DNA of 62,908 nt, filler included, from Reclinomonas americana ATCC 50394 (Eukaryota), in assembly GCA_048213135.1 (NCBI GenBank). It is 9 parts of 8 records of this genome, joined end to end, with 100 filler letters (N's around TTAATTAATTAA, not from the genome) between each part and the next. Parts side by side here need not be neighbours in the genome. Positions count along the whole stretch, not along the records: positions 1 to 19,134 come from PS015948.1; 8 more parts are not named here. One strand, 5' to 3'. The position numbers and the translations under genes were made by a program. Under the pieces are notes generated by a model, which was given only the letters and a program-made list of their open reading frames with translations, was not told the DNA's origin and made no database searches. This document shows, piece by piece, positions 6,700 through 22,700 of this stretch. The stretch's first letter is position 1; every line of letters starts with the position of its first letter.

Positions 6700-7311
6700 A
6701 TGTGGAAGAGGATGGGGGAAGGGGGAAAAGGAAGGGAAAGAGAGTGGAATGGGCAGAGAGAGGGGCGGGAGAGAGAAAGAGCTGCAGGAAGGAAGGAAGT
6801 AGATACGCCAACTTGCAGGAAGGTCGAGAAAACTTGGAGAGAAGAGAGTTGCGCAGGAGACAACTGCATCAGGGTGATAATTTGTATGCTGTGATGCGAC
6901 AATGCAGACGTTCCTGTTCTGCTACTGAGAGTTCTCTCGAAAAGAGACATGCAAATGTGTCGACCCCGTCGTCGTCACACTTGCAACTGTAACCGAATGC
7001 GCAGCCAGTGATAACAGCAGCCAGCCGTCGAAGTATATTCAAAACGGCAGGCTGCAAGATATACTCTCTCTCTCTCACTTTCCTTCTCTCTTCGCTCTCT
7101 TCCTCATTCCTCTCCAAATGCACCTCCTCTTTCGTCGCCCACTTTAAATTTGTACAAGATCAAGGCAAGTGCATCTGGGGTTTATTGATGCCAAACTCAC
7201 AAGTATTGAGAGGTTCACACCAAACAGCAAACAGCTGCACGATGATCTCCATCGTGTCAATCAGTAACACTCGCGTCGTCGACTTCATTGCCAGCAGAGC
7301 TCCAATCATCG

Positions 7312-10300
7312 TCATCGACCTGAGACTCTTTCTTCCTCCTCTTCCTCTTCGTCGCCCACGTCGGTCACTTCCTGTTGGCTGACGCCACCCACAGCATCAA
7401 GCGCGTTGGAGAAATCGGGCAAGACGCTGCCGATGATGCGTTCCACAAGCCCACGAGCGTTTCGACGCATCAGTTGGATCGCCCGGCCAGACACACGGGC
7501 GGTGCACGCAGAACCGAATGCCATGCAGCGAAGAAAAGTCACACAATCCGCTGTAGGTGTCACTAGATCTGCCTGCTCATCAAGAGGCACTTCTTCACCA
7601 GTCGACAGTGACCACACTCGAACTTCTCCGTGACCACTGACGCTCACGATGTACTGACCATCGGGAGTGACATCGACAGCCCCCACCCCGCCCGTGAGTC
7701 CCTCCAGTCGTAGCAGTTGCTCTCCACTCGCCAGTGACCACACTCGTACTGTATTGTCCCCACTCCCACTTACGACGTGCAGACCATCGGGAGTGACGGC
7801 GACAGACTCTACACTGCCTGTGTGTCCCTTCAGTCGGCGCACCCCCTCGCCGCTAGCCAGTGACCACACTCGCACTGAGTCGTCCAGACTACCGCTAACG
7901 ATGTGCTGACCATCAGGAGTGACGACGGCAGAGTTCACCCAGTAAGCATGTCCCCGCAGCAGCCGCACTTCTTGTCCACTCACCAATGACCACACGCGCA
8001 CCGTCCCGTCCCCAAAGCCACCGCCACTTACAATCTGCTGCCCATCAGGACTGACAACGACACACATAACACCACTCGTGTGACCTTCCACGGCGCAACT
8101 CTTCTCCACTCGCCAATGACCACACTCGCACTGTCTTGTCACTCCCTCCGCTCACAATGTATTGACCATTGGTAGTGACGGCGACACACGTTACACAATC
8201 ATTGTGCCCCTCAAATCGACGCACTTCTTCTCCACGATCCAAAGACCACACCAGAATAGACCCATTCTCACCACCACTCACAGCGAATTGACCAACTGGA
8301 GAAACAGTAAATGCGGAGGACTGTCCTGCCACCTGCCACAGTTCCTCGCCTGTTGACACAGACCACATCCTCACCGTCCCGTCATCACCGGCACTCACAG
8401 CATGCTGACAATCGTGGGTGAGCACAACTGAATGCACCAATCCGGTGTGCCCACCCAACCGACGTACTTCTTCATCACCTTTCACAGGCCACATTCGTAC
8501 TGTCATATCTCCACTCCCACTCACGACATACTGACTATCAGGAGTAACTGTAACTGAACGCAGTTGACCAGTGTGTCCCTCCAACCGTCGCACCTCTACG
8601 CCACTCGCCAGTGACCAAACCCGCACAGTCGAGTCCCCACTCCCGCTAACGACGTGCTGTCCATCGGGAGTGACGGTAACTGTCGACACTGCATCGGTGT
8701 GTACCTCGAACCGTTGCATTTCATCCCCATTCGCCAGTGACCACACTCGCACAGTCTTATCATCACTCCCACTAACAAGAAGCTGGCCATCCGGAGTGAC
8801 AGCGATGGAATTCACCCCACCTGTGTGGCCTTCCAGTCGGCGCACCTGCTCGCCACTTGCCACTGACCACACCCGTACAGTCGTGTCATCACTGCCACTC
8901 ACAATGTGCTGGCCATCGGGCGTAATTGCCACTGCATTCACCCAATCCGTGTGACCTTCCAGTCGCCGCACCTCCTCGCCACTTGCAAACGACCACATCC
9001 GTATAGTTTTGTCCTCACTGCCACTCACAATGTGCTGACCATCGGGTGTCACTGCCACTGCAGAAACCCGATTTGAGTGGCCTTCCAGTCGGCGCACCTC
9101 CTCACCACTTGCCAGCGACCACACCAGCACAGTCTCGTCAAGACTGCCACTCACAATGTGCTGGCCATCGGGTGTCACTGCCACTGCATACACCCAACCA
9201 GTGTGACCTTCCAGTCGCAGTTCCTCCTCTCCACTTGTCACACACCACACCCTTACAGTGCAGTCATCACTTCCACTAACAATGTGCTTACAGTCGGGAG
9301 TGACGGCGACAGCTCTCACCCAGTCAGTGTGCCCCGCCAACGGCTTCCTCGGCCACTGCACATCCGTCACATTCGCCCCCCTGAAATCCGCCTCCCTCGC
9401 ATACGCCATGCACACATTAACCTCTCGCATATCCGCCCCCCTCCACACCGTCCTGTGCATCACCGCATCCCTCAAATCCGCACCCCTCACTCGCACACCT
9501 GACAGGTCTCGTCCACTGAACGACGCTTGCGCCACACACAGCACCGTTGCTGCATTCGCGGCTGCCGTCACCAGTCGCTCCTCATCCATCTCTCGTGACA
9601 ACGCAATCACCTCCCACAATCTCGCTTGCAGTCGAGGAGACCGTCGAACCACCTCGGCCATCTGCTCCACCAACGATGGTCTGTCGTTCAGCAATCGCAC
9701 TGCCAGCACATGCTGCTGCACATCCAGCACCGTCATCTTCCTCCCCTCATCCCACGTCTCCCACGCAAACACATGCCGCGCTACACAGTGCTCCAGCAAC
9801 GACAGATGCACGAATCCCCACTGCGTCGTCCCATATCGTCGCACAATTGGACAGCACATTCGCACATGCTGGTTCTTGTTGCCGAGAAACTTGTCAAGTG
9901 GCCCCTCCTCCACTCGTCGCACGGCGAGTGGCGCACCACCAAAGTCATCCTCCTCTTCCTCTCCGCCATCACCTGACCGAGACTCCATCACAGACACACG
10001 CACCAAGTTCCTCTCATGCATCAACCGTGCCAGTCCCTCGCAGAATGCGAGACACGTTTCCTCACCCGGCACACGCTCCGCACCAAGACGCGTCTGCTTC
10101 TCCTGCTCCCTCACAATCCACTGTCGAATGAATCGATCAAACACATCGCACCGAGTTGGTCGCTGTACTCCACTTGCCACCAACTGCGGCAACACACGAG
10201 CAACAACTGAGAGCATGAACGGATTCGACACCAGTACATCCAGTCCATGTATACTCTTCAGTGCACGAATGTACTCGTCTGCAGTCGACCATCGCACTTC

Positions 10301-12175
10301 ACCGTCATCATCACCACCACCAAATTGCACCAGTCGCTCAAAGTACTCCTCAATCTGCTCCTTGCTGAACGGTGCAATGTGTCGCTCCATCAGCTGCTGC
10401 ATGCACAACTGTCCTCGTACATCTACCGGTGCAAAGTACTGTCGATACTGCGTCACACCACCCAGTGCCGTCAGTGCGTAATCACCTCGGCAGGTGATAA
10501 TCACCTTCACATCGCGACACACATCTAACTGGTTCTTGACAAACAGATTCACACCACGGTACAACTCATCGTACCCGTCAAGCAACACCAGCAGTGGTTC
10601 CTCCTTCAGTCGTCGCACATCCGACTCACTGAATCCCAACTCGGGCGACAGGCGCTCCAATGCCTCCTGCACCAGTCGCTCATCAGCATTGCGCAAAGCT
10701 CCAAGAGGCACACGCACAGGCACTCGTCGACGTCTGCTTGCTCTCGTCTGCCACTGTCGCCACGCTCGCTCAGCCAGCACCGACATGGTGGTGGTCTTGC
10801 CTGCTCCGCTGTTGCCAAAGAGCACCAGAACACGCTGGGTTGTGTTGGTGTCCGAGAGGAAAACATCCAACTCCGTAAGCAGATCAGTCACCTTGTCGCT
10901 TGACGAGACGTCACGCTCACGTGAGCACAGCAGTGGCACATACATCTGCATGTCCTTGTGCACACTCTCGTCGTGCTGGTAGAAGGAGAGCTCACGTACA
11001 GCCAGTCGATGCAGTCGCTCTTCATAGGTGCTGATGATGTGCTGAACGTGACGCGCCTCACGAATCCGCGCCGCAAAACCATCAATCACGTCGCCAGGAA
11101 GCTGCAACTTGCCGAGGAGAGAGAGGAACGTGCCGCAATCACCGAGATACTCATGAACGCTGGCCGCTGTCAATGCCGACGAACCGTGCGCCAACTCGTT
11201 CCGCACTTCCCGCAACTGCTCCAGCGCCTTGCGCTCATCAGCATCGTCCATCACCAGCGCCTTGCGACCGTCGACAGGCACAAAACCGCCGAACAGCAAG
11301 ATGGAAGCCAAGGCCGTCACGTCAAAGGCGTTACACGAGGGAACGGAGGTGGGGTCGGCATCAAAGGCAGACTTCCATTCGACCATGTGCCGCTGCTGCG
11401 GCGCAAACAACTTGACTCGACCAGGGGCGAGTGGTGCATGTTGATCGTACCACTCCCTGATCGTCAACGGATGCCAGAACAACGGTGGTGTCCAGAGATC
11501 GGGAGTCCACGCCCGCACATCAAAGTCGAGATGATCGCGACTGAACTGTGCCAGTGCGCGTTGACAGCGCAGACGCACGGCCTCCTCCACCACCTCAAAG
11601 GCCATGTTGATGCGCTGTGAGTTGATCATGCTGTGCGTGCATACAGAAACACAGTCAGTACAGACTCGCTTCGAGTGAAGAAAAAGGAAAGGGAGAGAAG
11701 AATGACGAGGGCAGGCAAACAAACCGAGTCACTCGCTCCGAGTTGCTGTGCGGAGACATGGAGTGAGATGTATGTTGCACAGAGAGATAATTCACAGACA
11801 CATCCAGGCACACACACCTTCCGCCCTCACTCCCTCCACTCGACTGCAGCGCCACGCCAAGTGTCAGACGGACGACGAGATGAGTGGATGAGTTGATTCC
11901 TAGAATGCGCAGCGGAATGCCACCACCCTCCTCGATATCGAATGCGCTCGGCTTCTCCACTCCCACAATCTCCATCGCCTCATCTCCACTCTTCTTACGC
12001 AGCAAGCGTGTGGCCTCGCGCAGCAAGTCCGCGAGAGTGGACATGCCCGACATGCCCTCCACCACCACCGACAGCGATGAATCATGCGCCGCACTCACGG
12101 TCACAGAGAACTGCGAGAGGAGGACAGTGAGCACACTGATGGAGGGAGAGAAGTCACCCAAACACACACCGACAT
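7312..12175 (-). CDS. NLR-like STAND protein copy 1: Ubl - HEPN - NACHT - pentapeptide - 14xWD40; frameshifted near 8090 (possible pseudogene)
   Basis: Predicted exons 12175-12170 (ATG TCG), 12110-11818 (Ubl), 11745-11725 (21 nt) and 11630 onward; all introns are GT-AG and phase-consistent. HEPN motif RNELAH at 11203-11186, Walker A GNSGAGKTT, Walker B LLVLLDGYDE, NPFML and FVHLSLLEH motifs, pentapeptide stretch GADLRDAVMH...ADFRGANV, and GH..W WD40 repeats. A 2-nt deletion relative to copy 3 at 8090/8091 shifts repeats 11-14 into the 7312..8142 frame. Confidence 0.85.
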
Positions 12176-12290
12176 TGTGTGCGCTGCGTGTTTCTATTCT
12201 CAGTTGCGTTTCTCACAAATTCCTGTCAATGAAGTTGTCGCAAAGCTGGTGGGTTTCTTCTGACAGCAATCCTTGCAAGCCCAACCAAGT
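12176..12290 (-). promoter_or_regulatory. Conserved upstream segment shared with NLR copy 2 (19670-19773)
   Basis: Reverse complement ...aagaaacccaccagctttgcgacaacttcattgacaggaattt...gcacacaATG aligns with ...aagaaacccaccagcattgtgacaacttgattgacgggaattt...gcacaATG. Confidence 0.5.
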
Positions 12291-12588
12291 CGGGATGAGG
12301 GGAGCATGTACAGGAGTGTCATACCCCCTTGCAACTTGCACGTGCGATCATCTGCATTCAACATGAGAAAGTCGACGTCGTTTCTGTCTGCCCAGCACTC
12401 GTACCGCGTACGGTATACGTTCCCCCCTCTTCTTTAATAGTGACCAAGTCCACCAACATAATACTTCCTGATCATTCATTAGTAGGTTCACTTGTTGATA
12501 GTGTTTTTAGACTCTCCCTGCGCGGCCGCGTTCGATCGATCCCTTGGCCGTGGTCAGCAGCAGGTGGTGATGTCCCACATCTGGCACG

Positions 12589-13677
12589 TCACCAATGCAG
12601 ATCGGGATCCGTGTGGCAGCGGAACAGCACCACTTCCGCCTCCTCCACAATGAAACAGCGAAGCACCATCTCCGGCAGGCATCGCGACTCCAGCTCTTCA
12701 TCTTCTTCCTGCTGGTGCTGAACCTCCTGTACAGCCTGCATGGCCAGTCGGGCTTCGTGTAGCTCGCACTGAGCGAGACCACACGGCGAGGACCACACCC
12801 GCACCGTGTTGTCATACGCGCCGCTCACGATGCACTGACCATCGAGAACGGCAGCGACGAAGAACACAGTGTCAGTGTGTCCCTCCAACTTCATTACCTC
12901 GTCTCCGCTCGCCAGCGACCACACTCGCACGGTCCTATATTCGCCGCCGCCCACGACGTGTTGACCGTTGGGAGTGACGGCAATACAAAAGACCCACTCA
13001 AAGCGTCCCAGCACACGCCGCACTTCTTCGCCAGTCTCCATCGACCACACTCGAACCGGGTCGTTATCGCCGCCACTCACGACGTGCCGACCATCGGGAG
13101 TGACAGCAACACCCCTGATGCACTCGGCGCATGCACTCATTCGTCGCACCTCCTCACCAGTCTCCAGCGACCACACGCGAACCGTGTCGTCGCTGCTTCC
13201 ACTCACCACGTACTGTCCATCGGGAGTGACAGCGACACAATGGACTGCCAACATGTGCCCCTCCAGACAGCGTATCTCCTCCCCCGACAGAGACCACACT
13301 CGAATCGTGTTGTCGTGACTTGCACTCACGGCGCGCAGACCATCGGGAGTGACGGCAACAGACCGCACTGCTCCAGTGTGCCCCACGAACTGTCGCACTT
13401 GCTGGCCACTCGCAAAGGACCACACGCACACTGTCTTGTCTGCGCTTCCACTGATAATGTGCTGGCTGTCGGGAGTCACTGCCACCGAATGTACCTCACT
13501 CGTGTGTCCCTCCATTCGGCGCACATGTTCTCCACTCGCCAGTGACCACACCCGCACGGTCTTGTCCACGGAACCAGTCACAAAGTGTCGCAGGTCGGGG
13601 GCGACAGCCACACAGAGCACGAGGTCGGTGTGCCCCAGCAGGCAATTGTGAGAGCGTGAGAAAGTGGTGCGCGACAT
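12589..13677 (-). CDS. Stand-alone 7xWD40 protein with conserved C-terminal helical motif (WD-small A)
   Basis: Intronless ORF from ATG 13677 (MSRTTF...) with 7 repeats of the VAVTPDG..VSGS.D.TVRVWSLASGE type. The tail ...RCLPEMVLRCFIVEEAEVVLFRC is homologous to the tail of 25446..26528. Confidence 0.85.
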   Translation of the reverse strand: MSRTTFSRSHNCLLGHTDLVLCVAVAPDLRHFVTGSVDKTVRVWSLASGEHVRRMEGHTSEVHSVAVTPDSQHIISGSADKTVCVWSFASGQQVRQFVGHTGAVRSVAVTPDGLRAVSASHDNTIRVWSLSGEEIRCLEGHMLAVHCVAVTPDGQYVVSGSSDDTVRVWSLETGEEVRRMSACAECIRGVAVTPDGRHVVSGGDNDPVRVWSMETGEEVRRVLGRFEWVFCIAVTPNGQHVVGGGEYRTVRVWSLASGDEVMKLEGHTDTVFFVAAVLDGQCIVSGAYDNTVRVWSSPCGLAQCELHEARLAMQAVQEVQHQQEEDEELESRCLPEMVLRCFIVEEAEVVLFRCHTDPDLHW

Positions 13678-13934
13678 GCGACAAGGGAGAGGGATGAAGG
13701 GAGAGAGGGAGGGAGGGAGAGGGAGGGAGAGGGAGAAGGGAACGCGAAGGGAAATGCGTGCTTGAGAGTCGCTTGAGAGACAGTGGAAAATGAGATGGGA
13801 CGACACGCGCGCTGTCCGTTTTCGCGACGTCGGCTTATCGCTCGGCTGAGGAAGCCACTGGTTCTGCTGTTGGGTGATAACAGTTACGAACTGGACGCGT
13901 GTGAGACAAGGACAAGACTTTTTACTGAATAAAA

Positions 13935-14380
13935 GCGTGGCTTCGCGCAGCGGAAAGTGTCGAGGCACTCACCGTTGCGTACCCGAAGGACGAGGGAGGC
14001 GTTGCAAAAGGCGTACGACCAAGCTGGCTGTGTACTCGGAGCTGGTGGAGAAGATCCGGGCGCACACTGGAGCGGCTGTTACGTACGTGCCGATTGTTTT
14101 CACTCAAGTTGGCTCGTGTGCGCAAACTACCCGGGCGTCGTTGAAGAAGATGGGCATCGAGAGCGGCCAATTGCGCCGAGTGGTGGACCGGTGCTGCGTG
14201 GAGATCCTGCGGGCGGACTATGCGATGTTCGCTTCCGCTGTGCAGGCGGCAAGCCGGCTCAAGCAAACAATCCACCACCCACAGCAGCTGCGCTGCAGCC
14301 CCAGGGCAACTGAAACCATCGCGTCGCTACTGCAGCACCCAGCTTCAACGAATTCAGCGTCTGCTTTCGAATTCGAATGA
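13935..14380 (+). mobile_element. Degenerate 3' fragment of an REL-endonuclease non-LTR retrotransposon
   Basis: Across three frames it reads VE(A)LTVAYPKDE / EALQKAY / TKLAVYSELVEKIR...VTYVPIVFTQVGS...SLKKMGI. This matches the E-(L)TV...K..KY...P(h)..G pattern of R2/NeSL/CRE-type restriction-like endonucleases. Confidence 0.55.
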
Positions 14381-19773: not shown

Positions 19774-22700
19774 ATGTCGGTGTGTGCTTGCCTTCTCTCT
19801 TTTTCCTTCCTCCCTGCGCTCACTGTTCCTTGTTTGTGCGACAGTTCTCTGTTCCAGTGAGTGCGGCGCATGATTCATCGCTGTCGGTGGTGGTGGTGGG
19901 CATGTCGGCCATGTCCACTCTCGCGGAGTTGCTGCGCGAGGCCACCCGCTTGCTGCGTGAGAAGAGTGGAGACGAGGGAGTGGAGATTGTGGGGGTGGAG
20001 AAGCCGATGGCATTCGACTTGGAGGATGCGAGTGTGACGAAGTTGAGGACTCTGGGCATTGACGCATCCACTCATCTTGCCGTTCGTGTGGAACGTGGCG
20101 TGGCGCTGCCGAGTACGCGGTGCGTGTGTGAGTTGGGAGGAGACAGAGATAATGTACTCAACTGTGTGTCATATGTGCAGAAAACACAAGCGCGTGGCAT
20201 TGCTCATTGGCAACTCATGCGACGGTGATGGAGAGTATGGGCTGCTGAGGAACCCGCCGCATGATGTTGGTGCGTTCGTAGGTGCCCGTGAGCAAGTTTC
20301 CAAGCTTATACTCTGTTGTCTCCTCGCTCGCACTCACGCACTCGCCCCTCTCTGCCGCCCTCCGTCCACGCACAGCTCTCTTGCAGCCAGTGCTTGAAAA
20401 CGTTGAATTCCACGTCTGCGTGTTTGTCAATGTGAAAGGCGATCACATGAACTCGGTTCTTGATGACTTCGTGCGAGGCGAGGTGAACGAGCAGTGCGAG
20501 TGCGTGCTGTTGTTCTTCTCTGGTCACGGGCTGGCAATTGACGAAGACATGTTGCTCCTCCCGAGCGATGCTAACCACGTCTCCGGGGCTCGTCTGGTTA
20601 GTATTGCCATCGCGCTGTTTGCTTCTGGCAGTAATGTTTACCAGCGATATTTTGTGCAGGAGAGCGGTGAGAAATCAGTGACACTCGTCGGGTATTGCAT
20701 GAACCAACTGCGGCGAAAGACGTCGAGGCGCACGGTGTTGATCTTGCTGATGAACTGCTGCCGTTCCATCGCCAGGTGCGTACGCGAGTGTTGTCAGCTA
20801 GGCGCATGCCTATTTAGTCTCACTCTCTTCTGCGCTCGAATACAGTTCACAACCGCGGACTGTCGCTCCGATTGATGAAAGAGTATTAGCGGAGAACGTG
20901 TTCGTTGGATTCGCGTGTTACCACGGCTGGCAAGCACACGAGGGTGGTGAGTGGCGTGTAATGTGGTCTATCTGTTGATTGCTGCTCTCACGAAACCCCT
21001 TGTCGGATTTCCAGAGATGACATCGCCATATGTGCGGGCTCTAATTGAAGGAATCCAGAAGCACGGTTACTTGCCACTTCCTGCTTGGCACGAGCAAGTT
21101 AAGCTTTTGTTACCAGATATGCGACAGGAAGAACAAGAGCAGGAAGCCCTACATCGATATCGCCTGTTAGCACAGGAACTCGATGAGTTCCGTTTGAGCT
21201 TACGTCCAGGTAAGCCACTGTGCGGTCTTTTCTGTTACACTTACATCGGAGATGACTGCTGACTGCCACGTGTCACAGGCATTCACGCTTTGTGTCACCG
21301 TGAGCTCTCGTTCTACCAGCACGACGAGAGTGTGTGCAAGGACATGCAGATGTACGTGCCACTGCTGTGCTCACGTGATCGTGACGTCTCCTCGAGTGAC
21401 AAGATGATGGATCTGTTGATGGAGGTGGATGCTTTCCTCTCCGACGTCAACACCACCCAGCGCGTGCTGGTGCTCTTTGGCAACAGCGGCGCCGGTAAGA
21501 CCACCACTATGTCAGTGCTGGCCGAGCGAGCATGGCGACAGTGGCAAACGAGGGAGAGCAGACGAGTGCCTGTGCGTGTCCCACTCGGTGCTCTGCGCAA
21601 TGCCGATGAGCGATTGTTGGAGGAGGCACTGGAGCGACTGTCGCCCGAGTTGGGTTTGGAGTCGGACGTGCGACGGCTGAAGGAGGAGTCACTGCTGTTA
21701 TTGCTCGACGGGTACGATGAGCTGTACCGCGGTGTGAATCTGTTTGTCAAAAACCAGCTGGATGTGTGCCGCGATGTAAAGGTGATTATCACCTGTCGAA
21801 CTGATTACGCACTGACGGCACTGGGAGGCGTGACGCAGTATCGACGGTACTTTGCACCAGTGGATGCACGGGGACAGTTAAGTATGCATCAGCTGATGGA
21901 GCAATACATTGCACCGTTCAACAAGAAGCAGATTGCGGAGTACTTTGAGCGACTGGTGCGAGTAGGTGATGATGTTGATGATGAGGTGCGATGGTCGACA
22001 GCCGAGGAGTACATTCGTGCACTGAAGAGTGTGCATGGACTGGATGCACTGGTGTCGAATCCGTTCCTGTTGGCAGTTGTGGCTCGCGTGTTGCCGCGAT
22101 TGGTGGCGAGTGGCGTGCAACGACCGACTCGGTGTGATGTGTTTGACCGGTTCATTCGACAGTGGATTGGGAGGGAGCAGGAGAGGCAGACGCGTCTTGG
22201 TGCAGAACGTGTGCCGAGTGAAGAGAAATGTCTAGCATTCTGTGAGGGACTGGCACGGTTGATGCACGAGGGGAATGTGGTGCGTGTGTCTGTGTCGGAG
22301 AGTCGATCAGGTGATGATGGGGAGGAGGATGACTTTGGTGGTGCGCCTCTCCCCTTGCGACGAGTGGAGGAGGGACCGTATGGCAAGTTCCTTGGTCACA
22401 AGAACCAGCATGTGCGAGTGTGCTGTCCGATTGTGCGACGGTATGGGACGACGCAGTGGGGATTTGTGCACCTGTCGTTGCTGGAGCACTGTATGGCACG
22501 GCATGTGTTTGCATGGGAGACATGGGATGACGACAGGAAGATGACAGTGCAGGATGTGCAGCAGCATGTGTTGGCTGTGCGATTGCTGAACGACAGACCA
22601 TCGTTGGTGGAGCAGATGGCCGAGGTGGTGAGGCGGTCTCCTGCACTGCAAGCGAGACTGTGGGAGGTGATTGAGATGTCACGAGAGGTGGATGAGGAGC

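What the first reader, a model, noticed from the sequence alone, without database searches (positions are those of the whole stretch)
11020..11630. HEPN effector core is a sharply bounded divergent cassette between copies 1 and 3
Seen: copies 1 and 3 are almost identical up to FDVRAW and again from EERLHRLAVRELSFY. The roughly 160 aa in between (about 11505-11020 versus 50900-50420) are by eye only about half identical, yet keep FDxTALxSI and RNxLxH without stops. Inference: either ancient HEPN variants swapped as cassettes while the flanks are homogenised by gene conversion, or diversifying selection to escape pathogen inhibitors. Retention of the motif suggests active RNases.
Basis: partly seen in the sequence, partly recalled or inferred. 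Interest (0 to 1): 0.7.

Follow-up and report, generated by a model that had tools for sequence, protein, structure and literature searches.

The report
Old HEPN core in young NLR paralogues
Two neighbouring copies of an immune-receptor-like gene in a protist are about 90% alike, except for a sharply bounded 486-base block inside their putative RNA-cutting head domain that is about three times older, a recombination pattern already known from such gene families.

Summary
Copies 1 and 3 (NACHT-pentapeptide-WD40 genes on the minus strand, 39.4 kb apart) differ at 10.8% of sites outside window 11506-11021 and at 39.4% inside it. The two-breakpoint maximum chi-square is 217, and 0 of 200 permutations reached 30.

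Synonymous divergence is also higher inside the block. At four-fold sites it is 18/34 against 64/252, and pS for residues 76-195 is 0.67 (0.56-0.79) against 0.28 (0.24-0.32). dN/dS in the core is about 0.27, and both copies keep RNxLxH. The core is therefore older than its flanks, not just fast-evolving at the protein level.

Copy 2 shares the same N-terminal exon and chassis, and all three copies are equally distant from each other. Copy 2 carries an intron-split caspase-like head in the same slot, and its homology to the others resumes 25 nt from the cassette's 3' breakpoint.

The HEPN label is probable but unproven. Pfam HEPN_Swt1 scores below its cut-off. hhalign against bacterial Swt1-like HEPNs gives 46-64% probability with a score far above shuffled controls. 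The fold models are of low confidence.

The scan had already noted this family with swapped heads on another piece of this genome (e1-7448605). This is a new member of a known kind (NLR effector reassortment, partial gene conversion) and is of moderate interest.

The parts
11021..11506 (-). Divergent cassette of copy 1 (aa 34-195 of the ORF read from the ATG at 11605). It is the core of the HEPN-like head.
   Evidence: Maximum chi-square breakpoints: 39.4% divergence inside against 10.8% outside. pS 0.60 against 0.28.
50422..50901 (-). Counterpart cassette of copy 3 (aa 34-193), 6 nt shorter.
   Evidence: Alignments.
11186..11203 (-). R135-N-E-L-A-H140, an Rx4H motif of HEPN type, in copy 1. 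Copy 3 has R133-N-K-L-K-H138 at 50587-50604.
   Evidence: Translations. All weak HEPN model hits centre here. hhalign pairs it with RNRWAH of bacterial Swt1-like HEPNs.
11507..11630 (-). Conserved 5' part of the large exon of copy 1 (inferred acceptor at 11631|11630; leader aa 1-33 is 11605-11507). It is about 94% identical to copy 3 (50902-51025).
   Evidence: That it forms the first HEPN helix is only suggested by a low-confidence global hhalign.
11725..11745 (-). Inferred 21-nt microexon, 20/21 identical to copy 3 (51116-51136). It joins the N-terminal exon to the large exon in frame.
   Evidence: Read; coordinates. There is no RNA evidence.
11818..12110 (-). Conserved N-terminal exon (about 95 aa, no known family), shared by all three copies (c2 19845-20119, c3 51198-51484).
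   Evidence: Amino-acid identity of copy 1 to copies 2 and 3 is 74% and 78%. Nucleotide identity is 82.2/85.0/83.3%. No Pfam match and no database relatives.
9350..11020 (-). Copy 1 chassis: linker ERLHRLAVRELSFY, NACHT (Walker A GNSGAGKT), helical region and pentapeptide repeats.
   Evidence: PF05729 at 34.7 bits (cut-off 26.7) and PF00805 at 26.4 bits (cut-off 20.2). 11.1% nucleotide divergence from copy 3.
7312..9349 (-). Copy 1 WD40 array and C-terminal tail. The frame is broken by a 2-nt deletion near 8092; the ORF continues in another frame at 8142-7312.
46795..51025 (-). Copy 3 large exon: HEPN-like head, NACHT, pentapeptide repeats and WD40 repeats, 1401 aa from the ATG at 51000.
20181..21209 (+). 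Copy 2 head: a caspase-like (Peptidase_C14) module in four inferred exons (20181-20269, 20376-20775, 20846-20946, 21015-21209). It occupies the slot that holds the HEPN-like module in copies 1 and 3.
   Evidence: PF00656 E=1.1e-9, 38.7 bits (cut-off 21.4). The in-frame splice model was read by eye; there is no RNA evidence.
21279..25003 (+). Copy 2 chassis exon (NACHT, pentapeptide repeats, WD40). Homology to copies 1 and 3 begins at about 21299 (RELSFY), which corresponds to c1 10996.

Best explanation
The window holds three paralogues of an NLR-like STAND gene. Each has a conserved N-terminal exon, then an effector slot, then a NACHT, pentapeptide and WD40 chassis.

In copies 1 and 3 the slot holds two versions of a HEPN-like (Swt1-like) putative RNase head. 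These two versions separated about three times earlier than the sequences on either side of them. In copy 2 the slot holds a caspase-like head.

The mosaic arose by homologous recombination within the family. Either a short ectopic gene conversion or double crossover of about 0.5 kb put an older, diverged HEPN core into a younger gene copy, or recombination overwrote both flanks while the core escaped. The conserved leader and the ERLHRLAVRELSFY linker served as the homologous anchors. Both HEPN versions have since been kept under purifying selection with the catalytic R and H intact.

By inference from other NLR and HEPN systems, ligand binding by the WD40 array would oligomerise the NACHT module. 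That would bring HEPN heads together and switch on RNA cleavage, a suicide or dormancy response. Two heads would give two substrate or inhibitor-resistance profiles.

Shown here: the breakpoints, the age difference, the purifying selection and the shared slot. Inferred: the direction and donor of the exchange, RNase activity and any immune role.
For: - Sharp breakpoints at 11506 and 11021: chi-square 217, 0 of 200 permutations reached or exceeded it. blastn breaks at the same places.
- Among codons with the same amino acid, 35/74 differ in the block against 101/486 in the chassis (Fisher P=3.6e-6).
- Four-fold sites: 18/34 against 64/252 differ (P=0.002). The Jukes-Cantor distances are 0.92 against 0.31.
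- Bootstrap pS for aa 76-195 is 0.67 (0.56-0.79), against 0.28 (0.24-0.32) for the chassis.
- ts/tv is 0.83 in the block against 1.86 outside. GC3 is alike, so the block is not of foreign origin.
- dN/dS is 0.27 for aa 76-150. There are no stops, and RNxLxH is kept.
- All three copies are equidistant in the chassis (87.4-88.4% nt; private sites 85/85/82) and in the N-terminal exon (82-85%).
- Copy 2 has a Peptidase_C14 head. Its homology to copies 1 and 3 resumes at c1 10996, 25 nt from the cassette's 3' breakpoint.
- Another note of this scan reports HEPN and caspase heads on the same chassis elsewhere in this genome (e1-7448605, unchecked), so donors may exist.
- Precedents:
  - Fungal NLRs with 80-99% identical NODs and different N-terminal domains (PMC4986451, passages read).
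  - Domain-limited gene conversion in zebrafish NLRs (10.1101/027151, passages read).
Against: - No donor copy was seen, because the genome is not held. The direction of the exchange (core replaced, or flanks overwritten) is therefore open.
- The chassis shows no patchy conversion tracts (runs test P=0.28), so recombination in this family is not shown independently outside the WD40 repeats.
- The first part of the block (aa 34-75) has pS 0.38 (0.21-0.55), overlapping the flanks, and dN/dS 1.19. This part could be the same age as the flanks and simply unconstrained or positively selected. The true 5' breakpoint may then lie further in.
- Pairwise NG86 estimates near saturation are rough.
- HEPN membership is below Pfam's cut-off and the fold is unconfirmed.
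- Copy 1 has a frame-breaking 2-nt deletion in its WD40 array, so it may no longer be functional.
Confidence: 0.65

Rival explanations
1. In-place rapid evolution. The two heads are the same age as their flanks, and diversifying selection (for example escape from pathogen inhibitors) drove the amino-acid divergence without any recombination.
For: Effector and sensor parts of immune-type genes often evolve fast. In aa 34-75, dN/dS is 1.19 and pS is not clearly above the flanks. The protein-level contrast is large: 46% identity against 89%.
Against: - Selection on protein sequence does not raise synonymous divergence, yet pS for aa 76-195 is 0.67 against 0.28 with non-overlapping bootstrap intervals. 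Same-amino-acid codons differ twice as often in the block.
- dN/dS in the core is 0.27.
- The edges are steps within a few bases, not gradients.
- ts/tv falls as expected from saturation.
Confidence: 0.15
2. Decay. One copy (copy 1, which has a frameshift in its WD40 array) is a pseudogene, and its head has drifted freely.
For: A 2-nt deletion near 8092 breaks the copy 1 frame.
Against: - Drift would affect the whole gene, but chassis dN/dS is 0.17 and the leader is 94% identical.
- The 160-codon block has no stop in either copy and keeps the R and H residues.
- The frame downstream of the deletion stays open for 276 codons, so the break is recent or an assembly error.
- Relaxed constraint does not raise dS.
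Confidence: 0.07
3. Local hypermutation or an assembly chimera produced the block.
For: The block is short and sharply bounded. The window contains many masked stretches.
Against: - The substitution spectrum is not one-sided: ts 86, tv 103.
- There are no boundary repeats or signals.
- Both versions are clean ORFs with conserved motifs, GC3 like their surroundings, and purifying selection.
- No N lies within 7000-14000 or 46000-52000.
Confidence: 0.04

Closest known systems
Fungal NLRs with reassorted N-terminal effector domains (Dyrka et al. 2014, PMC4986451; passages read)
   Same: NACHT-WD40 genes in which highly similar NOD domains (80-99% identity) sit behind different N-terminal heads within one genome. 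This is explained there by recent swaps of the head. The highly conserved 42-aa WD40 repeats are also alike.
   Different: Here the host is an intron-rich protist, not a fungus. The head slot is internal, preceded by a conserved N-terminal exon. One of the contrasts is between two homologous but old versions of the same head, with a 5' breakpoint 33 codons into the large exon.
Domain-limited gene conversion in the zebrafish NLR-B30.2 family (10.1101/027151; passages read)
   Same: Different parts of paralogous NLR genes show different synonymous divergence. This is read there as recombination acting on some parts of a gene and sparing others.
   Different: In zebrafish it is an ongoing process across hundreds of genes. 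Here there are three copies, star-like divergence and no sign of patchy tracts in the chassis.
Animal HEPN-NACHT proteins (DZIP3/hRUL138-like HEPN, PF18738) of bivalves and cnidarians (PMC9646362 and PMC8260672; passages read)
   Same: A HEPN head with Rx4H (asparagine after R) at the N-terminus of a NACHT protein, sometimes with WD40 repeats, in expanded and rearranging gene families. Language-model look-alikes of both heads are clusters from Cnidaria and Mollusca, some carrying PF18738.
   Different: PF18738 was not listed for either head at E up to 10. The only profile similarity is to Swt1-like HEPN. The lineage and the chassis (with pentapeptide repeats) differ.
Bacterial Swt1-like HEPN domains (PF18731)
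   Same: Shared motifs with similar spacing: [LF]D..AL..I, then about 40 aa, then ER....L..[VI]RN..AH. They also sit N-terminal to an NTPase (SNF2-type helicase or DUF499 in 5 of 5 loci examined, out of 12 fetched).
   Different: The score is below Pfam's cut-off (16.8 and 16.6 against 27.5 bits). hhalign probability is only 46-64%. The partner NTPase is a NACHT.
NACHT-pentapeptide-WD40 proteins of Mortierellomycota fungi and Mycoavidus endobacteria
   Same: The closest chassis relatives found, at 26-32% identity over 89-100% of the 550-aa query (the 13 fungal or Mycoavidus hits listed), with the same domain order.
   Different: Their N-terminal regions show no similarity to the HEPN-like head (hmmsearch of the A1 profile against 20 N-termini; best E 0.11).

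Membership tests
HEPN superfamily (Swt1-like, PF18731) | Rx4-6H motif with a polar residue (usually N) after R | tested here: met
   c1 R135-N-E-L-A-H140 and c3 R133-N-K-L-K-H138. R and H align with the nearly invariant R and the invariant H of 12 bacterial members.
HEPN superfamily (Swt1-like, PF18731) | Score above the curated Pfam cut-off (27.5 bits) | tested here: not met
   16.8 bits (E 0.0085) and 16.6 bits (E 0.0097). Only profile positions 73-115 of 115 are matched.
HEPN superfamily (Swt1-like, PF18731) | Profile-to-profile similarity to confirmed members | tested here: inconclusive
   - hhalign of A1 against 12 bacterial domains gives probability 45.6%, E 2e-4.
- The trimmed query gives 64%, score 30.9. 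For 150 column shuffles the mean was 11.2, sd 2.3, max 19.4; the reversed query scored 13.4.
- PADLOC RTasHEPN E 7e-4 and CARF_HEPN E 1.7e-3 for copy 1 only; copy 3 had no hit.
- Language-model look-alikes include HEPN_DZIP3 and HEPN_Swt1 clusters at 0.90-0.95.
HEPN superfamily (Swt1-like, PF18731) | All-alpha HEPN fold | tested here: inconclusive
   - AF2 models: pLDDT 34.8 with 2 sequences and 57.1, pTM 0.42, with 14 sequences. All-helical apart from one short hairpin.
- Foldseek found no match at E<=0.001. Three Csm6 chains appear at ranks 2, 9 and 18 with E 0.85-2.3.
- VIA-align found only generic helical bundles, Z up to 8.0.
HEPN superfamily (Swt1-like, PF18731) | Metal-independent RNase activity | not testable with these tools
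   Needs an enzyme or toxicity assay.
NACHT STAND NTPase / NLR-like receptor | NACHT domain with Walker A, above the Pfam cut-off | tested here: met
   PF05729 at 34.7 bits (cut-off 26.7), E 2e-8. GNSGAGKT is present in all three copies.
NACHT STAND NTPase / NLR-like receptor | Three-part build: N-terminal effector, NOD, C-terminal repeat sensor | tested here: met
   WD40 PF00400 E 1.5e-104 to 1.6e-150. Pentapeptide PF00805. Heads: HEPN-like or Peptidase_C14.
Recombinant (mosaic) paralogue made by ectopic gene conversion or cassette exchange | Statistically supported breakpoints | tested here: met
   Two-breakpoint maximum chi-square 217; 0 of 200 permutations reached or exceeded it.
Recombinant (mosaic) paralogue made by ectopic gene conversion or cassette exchange | Different neutral divergence (age) on the two sides of the breakpoints | tested here: met
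   Four-fold sites 18/34 against 64/252 (P=0.002). Same-amino-acid codons 35/74 against 101/486 (P=3.6e-6). Bootstrap pS intervals do not overlap for aa 76-195.
Recombinant (mosaic) paralogue made by ectopic gene conversion or cassette exchange | An identifiable donor, or incongruent trees among more family members | not testable with these tools
   No genome is held. No sequencing runs were listed. Sequence look-ups in the scan's notes found nothing, and neither did the chassis used as a control.

The most novel reading that the evidence does not exclude
The family has a built-in effector slot. A conserved N-terminal exon and leader on one side, and the ERLHRLAVRELSFY linker on the other, act as fixed homology anchors. 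Heads (several HEPN versions, caspase) are repeatedly exchanged between family members through these anchors by short conversion events. This would give the protist a germline mix-and-match system for death effectors on one sensor chassis.
Probability: 0.2. Interest if true: 0.6.

Novelty: new member of a known kind. Interest (0 to 1): 0.35.

Why it matters
It is a clean, small example of how NLR-type receptor families are assembled. One sensor-and-switch chassis carries three heads, and the recombination edges can be mapped almost to the base.

Two points go beyond the usual picture. First, the exchange involves two old versions of the same head, not only unrelated heads. Second, the slot is bracketed on both sides by conserved sequence, which would make repeated exchange easy.

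If the heads are active RNases, the pair offers a natural experiment on why a cell keeps two versions, for example different RNA targets or different sensitivity to pathogen inhibitors. It also extends HEPN-NACHT receptors from animals to an intron-rich protist. None of this changes current concepts, because the mechanisms are already described in fungi and fish.

Tried and rejected
- Whole-genome search: no genome is held for this window.
- Relatives of the head:
  - A word-index search of the 5.8-billion-cluster protein set, restricted to 770-2452 aa, found none.
  - A full HMMER profile search of 1.84 billion representatives gave one hit. It is a tandem-repeat protein matched in 11 stretches, judged spurious.
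  - PDB sequence searches gave nothing relevant.
  - NCBIfam gave nothing relevant.
  - The N-termini of 20 chassis relatives showed no similarity.
- Relatives of the N-terminal exon: none at E<=0.001 among the 8000 candidates of 171-2000 aa that were scored; no Pfam match.
- Sequencing runs: none was listed and no RNA holder was listed. The splice models and expression are therefore untested, and read laying was not used.
- Fold: the first AF2 model was unusable (pLDDT 34.8). The second was weak (57.1). Foldseek and VIA-align gave no specific fold.
- Homodimer prediction of the head: no verdict (score 0.00, own fold uncertain).
- Recombination signals: no direct or inverted repeats at the cassette edges.
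- Patchy conversion in the chassis: not found (runs test P=0.28).
- Leader as the first HEPN helix: the leader alone gives hhalign probability 1.4%.
- Scan-note look-ups by sequence: nothing, including the chassis control, so they are uninformative. By place, the 'near' and 'relatives' scopes gave nothing.
- Literature: a full-text search for HEPN + NACHT + protists returned one irrelevant Cas13 review.
- Considered and dropped: foreign origin of the block (GC and GC3 match the chassis) and RIP-like or DGR-like mutagenesis (mixed substitution spectrum).
Full report
**What is in the window**

The window carries three long ORFs of one family:
- Copy 1 at 8045-11605 (minus strand).
- Copy 2 at 21263-25003 (plus strand).
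- Copy 3 at 46795-51000 (minus strand).

Each has a NACHT domain (PF05729, 34.7 bits against a cut-off of 26.7), pentapeptide repeats (PF00805) and a long array of 42-aa WD40 repeats. The 126-nt WD40 units are up to 90% identical within and between copies.

No whole genome is held for the window. Earlier notes of this scan describe the source as an unidentified, intron-dense eukaryote with GTGCGT-type splice donors. They also report a five-member cluster of the same chassis with HEPN or caspase heads on another piece of the genome (e1-7448605). I could not check those notes directly.

**Check of the observation**

BLASTP gives 79% identity between copies 1 and 3 overall (932/1183).

At the DNA level the homology falls into two blastn pieces: c1 12182-11507 at 81.3% and c1 11060-7017 at 85.4%. 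Nothing aligns between them.

A 60-nt sliding window shows 0.88-0.95 identity on both sides and 0.47-0.77 between about 11517 and 11040.

A two-breakpoint maximum chi-square scan over 2223 aligned coding sites puts the segment at c1 11506..11021. Divergence is 39.4% inside and 10.8% outside, with chi-square 217. The largest value in 200 permutations was 29.4.

Amino-acid identity is 31/33 in the leader, 74/160 in the block and 486/547 in the next 557 residues. Both blocks are open and keep FDxTALxSI and RNxLxH.

**Age or selection?**

Several measures show that the core is older, not merely faster-evolving at the protein level:
- Among codons that encode the same amino acid in both copies, 35/74 differ in the block against 101/486 in the chassis (Fisher P=3.6e-6).
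- At four-fold sites, 18/34 differ against 64/252 (P=0.002). The Jukes-Cantor distances are 0.92 and 0.31, a ratio of about 3.
- Nei-Gojobori estimates for the block are pS 0.60, pN 0.33 and dN/dS 0.36. For the chassis they are pS 0.28, pN 0.06 and dN/dS 0.17.
- Bootstrapping over codons gives pS 0.67 (0.56-0.79) for aa 76-195 against 0.28 (0.24-0.32) for the chassis.
- ts/tv falls from 1.86 to 0.83 in the block, as expected near saturation. GC and GC3 do not differ.

The core of the block is therefore older than its flanks and is under purifying selection (dN/dS 0.27 for aa 76-150).

The first part, aa 34-75, is different. Its pS is 0.38 (0.21-0.55), which overlaps the flanks, and its dN/dS is 1.19. 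It rests on only 27 synonymous sites and a poor alignment. It may be an unconstrained or positively selected linker of the same age as the flanks. In that case the true 5' recombination point lies further in than 11506.

**The wider gene structure**

Upstream of each large ORF lies a conserved exon of about 95 codons: c1 12110-11818, c2 19845-20119 and c3 51484-51198. Copy 1 is 74% and 78% identical at the protein level to copies 2 and 3, and the pairwise nucleotide identities are 82-85%.

In copies 1 and 3 this exon can be joined in frame to the large exon through a 21-nt microexon (c1 11745-11725, c3 51136-51116, 20/21 identical). The inferred introns begin with GT (GTGTGT or GTTTGT) and end in CAG. 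This exon has no Pfam match and no database relatives.

In copy 2 the same exon is followed by four further inferred exons that encode a caspase-like domain (PF00656, E 1.1e-9). The domain has SGHG and NCCRS motifs. Three of copy 2's six inferred donors are GTGCGT; the others are GTGTGT, GTGAGT and GTAAGC. All exons read in frame into the chassis exon, which starts at 21279.

These splice models are read by eye and have no RNA support, because no sequencing run was listed.

**Three heads on one chassis**

From RELSFY to the end of the pentapeptide region the three copies are 87.4%, 88.4% and 87.7% identical. Private differences number 85, 85 and 82, and their order along the gene is random (164 runs observed, 168.9 expected, P=0.28). 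The chassis therefore looks like a clean, simultaneous three-way split. There is no sign of later patchy conversion.

The homology of copy 2 to the other two begins at c1 10996. That is 25 nt downstream of the cassette's 3' breakpoint at 11021 and 20 nt inside copy 2's last acceptor.

Both kinds of head difference therefore end at the same linker (ERLHRLAV|RELSFY): HEPN-like against HEPN-like, and HEPN-like against caspase. On the 5' side, copy 2 diverges right after the shared exon. Copies 1 and 3 stay alike through the microexon and 33 codons of leader.

The simplest reading is a younger gene family whose head slot has been refilled by recombination, with conserved sequence on both sides serving as anchors. 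For copies 1 and 3 there are two possible routes. One is a single exchange of about 0.5 kb with a more distant HEPN-bearing relative. The other is two separate overwriting events on the flanks. I cannot tell them apart without the rest of the family. No repeats or other signals mark the edges.

**Is the head a HEPN domain?**

The evidence is consistent but weak, and it all centres on one helix:
- Pfam HEPN_Swt1 is the top hit for both heads (E 0.0085 and 0.0097; 16.8 and 16.6 bits; cut-off 27.5). RiboL-PSP-HEPN is second for copy 1.
- PADLOC gives RTasHEPN (E 7e-4) and CARF_HEPN (E 1.7e-3) for copy 1 and nothing for copy 3.
- Language-model look-alikes of both heads are clusters from Cnidaria and Mollusca, some carrying HEPN_DZIP3 (11-38% of members). 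Bacterial clusters carrying HEPN_Swt1 (92% and 20% of members) score 0.90.

I fetched 12 bacterial Swt1-like HEPN domains from 12 of 401 genomes searched. The profile comparisons gave these results:
- hhalign of the two-sequence head profile against them gives probability 45.6% (E 2e-4).
- The query trimmed to aa 80-200 gives 64%, with score 30.9.
- 150 column-shuffled queries scored 11.2 ± 2.3 (maximum 19.4), and the reversed query scored 13.4.
- With a relaxed alignment threshold, and independently in MAFFT, FDxTALxSI pairs with LDLAALLRIL, and ERKALEQLREVRNELAH pairs with ERSLVSELREVRNRWAH.

The fold could not be confirmed:
- AF2 gave pLDDT 34.8 with two sequences.
- It gave 57.1 when the bacterial domains were added to the alignment, which also biases the model towards HEPN.
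- Foldseek found nothing at E<=0.001. Three Csm6 chains appear among weak rows.
- VIA-align found only generic helical bundles.

No sequence relatives of the head exist in the two large protein collections. I rate HEPN superfamily membership as probable (about 0.75) and RNase activity as inferred only.

**Comparison with what is known**

- The chassis is closest to NACHT-pentapeptide-WD40 proteins of Mortierellomycota fungi and their Mycoavidus endobacteria (26-32% identity). Their heads are unrelated to this one.
- Reassortment of heads on nearly identical NODs is documented in fungi (PMC4986451).
- Recombination that homogenises some domains of NLR paralogues and spares others is documented in zebrafish (10.1101/027151).
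- HEPN heads on NACHT proteins with Rx4H are abundant in bivalves and cnidarians (PMC9646362, PMC8260672).
- Of the 12 bacterial Swt1-like HEPN domains fetched, I examined the downstream sequence of five; all five sit N-terminal to NTPases, SNF2-type helicases or DUF499.

For all papers I read search listings and the quoted passages only.

**Verdict**

The 'ancient variant between younger flanks' reading is supported. 'Diversifying selection' may hold at most for aa 34-75. Ongoing homogenisation of the flanks is not shown.

This is a new member of a known kind. Interest is moderate (0.35), because every mechanism invoked has clear precedents and the scan has already noted the family.

The most novel reading still open is a dedicated two-anchor effector slot that allows repeated head exchange (probability about 0.2).

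Noticed in passing
window 20181-21209 (+), with 19845-20119 and 21279-25003: Copy 2 can be read as a seven-exon gene: the shared N-terminal exon, a caspase-like Peptidase_C14 domain (SGHG and NCCRS motifs), then NACHT, pentapeptide repeats and WD40. All joins are in frame, and three of its six inferred donors are GTGCGT. Another note of the scan (e1-7385622) mentions the same NCCR motif elsewhere in this genome.
   Followed up: partly
window 11818-12110 (-), 19845-20119 (+), 51198-51484 (-): A conserved exon of about 95 aa precedes the head in all three copies (copy 1 is 74% and 78% identical to copies 2 and 3). It has no Pfam match and no relatives found in the protein collection. By eye it looks like a small alpha/beta domain, but its fold was not tested.
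   Followed up: partly
window 11725-11745 (-) and 51116-51136 (-): An inferred 21-nt microexon, 20/21 identical between copies 1 and 3, lies between introns that differ at about a third of sites. It links the N-terminal exon to the large exon in frame.
   Followed up: partly
window about 8092 (-): Copy 1 lacks 2 nt relative to copy 3 inside a WD40 repeat, which breaks the frame. The next frame stays open for 276 codons and encodes further WD40 repeats and the conserved C-terminal tail. This is either a very recent pseudogene or an assembly error.
   Followed up: partly
window 8045-11630 and 46795-51025 (-): In a genome that other notes describe as intron-dense, the HEPN-like head, NACHT, pentapeptide repeats and WD40 array lie in one uninterrupted exon of 3.6-4.2 kb. 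The caspase head of copy 2, by contrast, is split by introns.
   Followed up: no
window 7568-9374, 12793-13675, 22938-24740, 26110-26409, 46997-48799: The 126-nt WD40 units are highly conserved within and between genes (up to 90% between copies 1 and 3). The number of units differs between copies. This is the 'high internal conservation' pattern known from fungal NLRs.
   Followed up: no
window 12589-13968 (-) and 25212-26528 (+): Stand-alone WD40-only ORFs of the same repeat type lie next to copy 1 (upstream) and copy 2 (downstream). They could be separate genes or remnants of further family members.
   Followed up: no
L001-L008 (Mycoavidus MAG records): A query with a Mycoavidus NACHT-pentapeptide-WD40 protein returned eight full-length loci at 54-80% identity from three Mycoavidus MAGs, five of them from a single MAG (BRE-AD073). 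The same architecture is found in the Mortierellomycota host fungi. This is compatible with transfer between host and endobacterium.
   Followed up: no
L012-L014, L018, L019: In all five loci examined, bacterial Swt1-like HEPN domains sit at the N-terminus of SNF2-type helicases (3 loci) or DUF499 proteins (2 loci).
   Followed up: partly
window, 22 runs of N (4962 bases in total): There are repeated pairs of 44-N runs separated by 12 bases, and longer N runs of 269-967 bases. They lower the apparent GC content in several 2-kb bins. None lies in the regions analysed.
   Followed up: no
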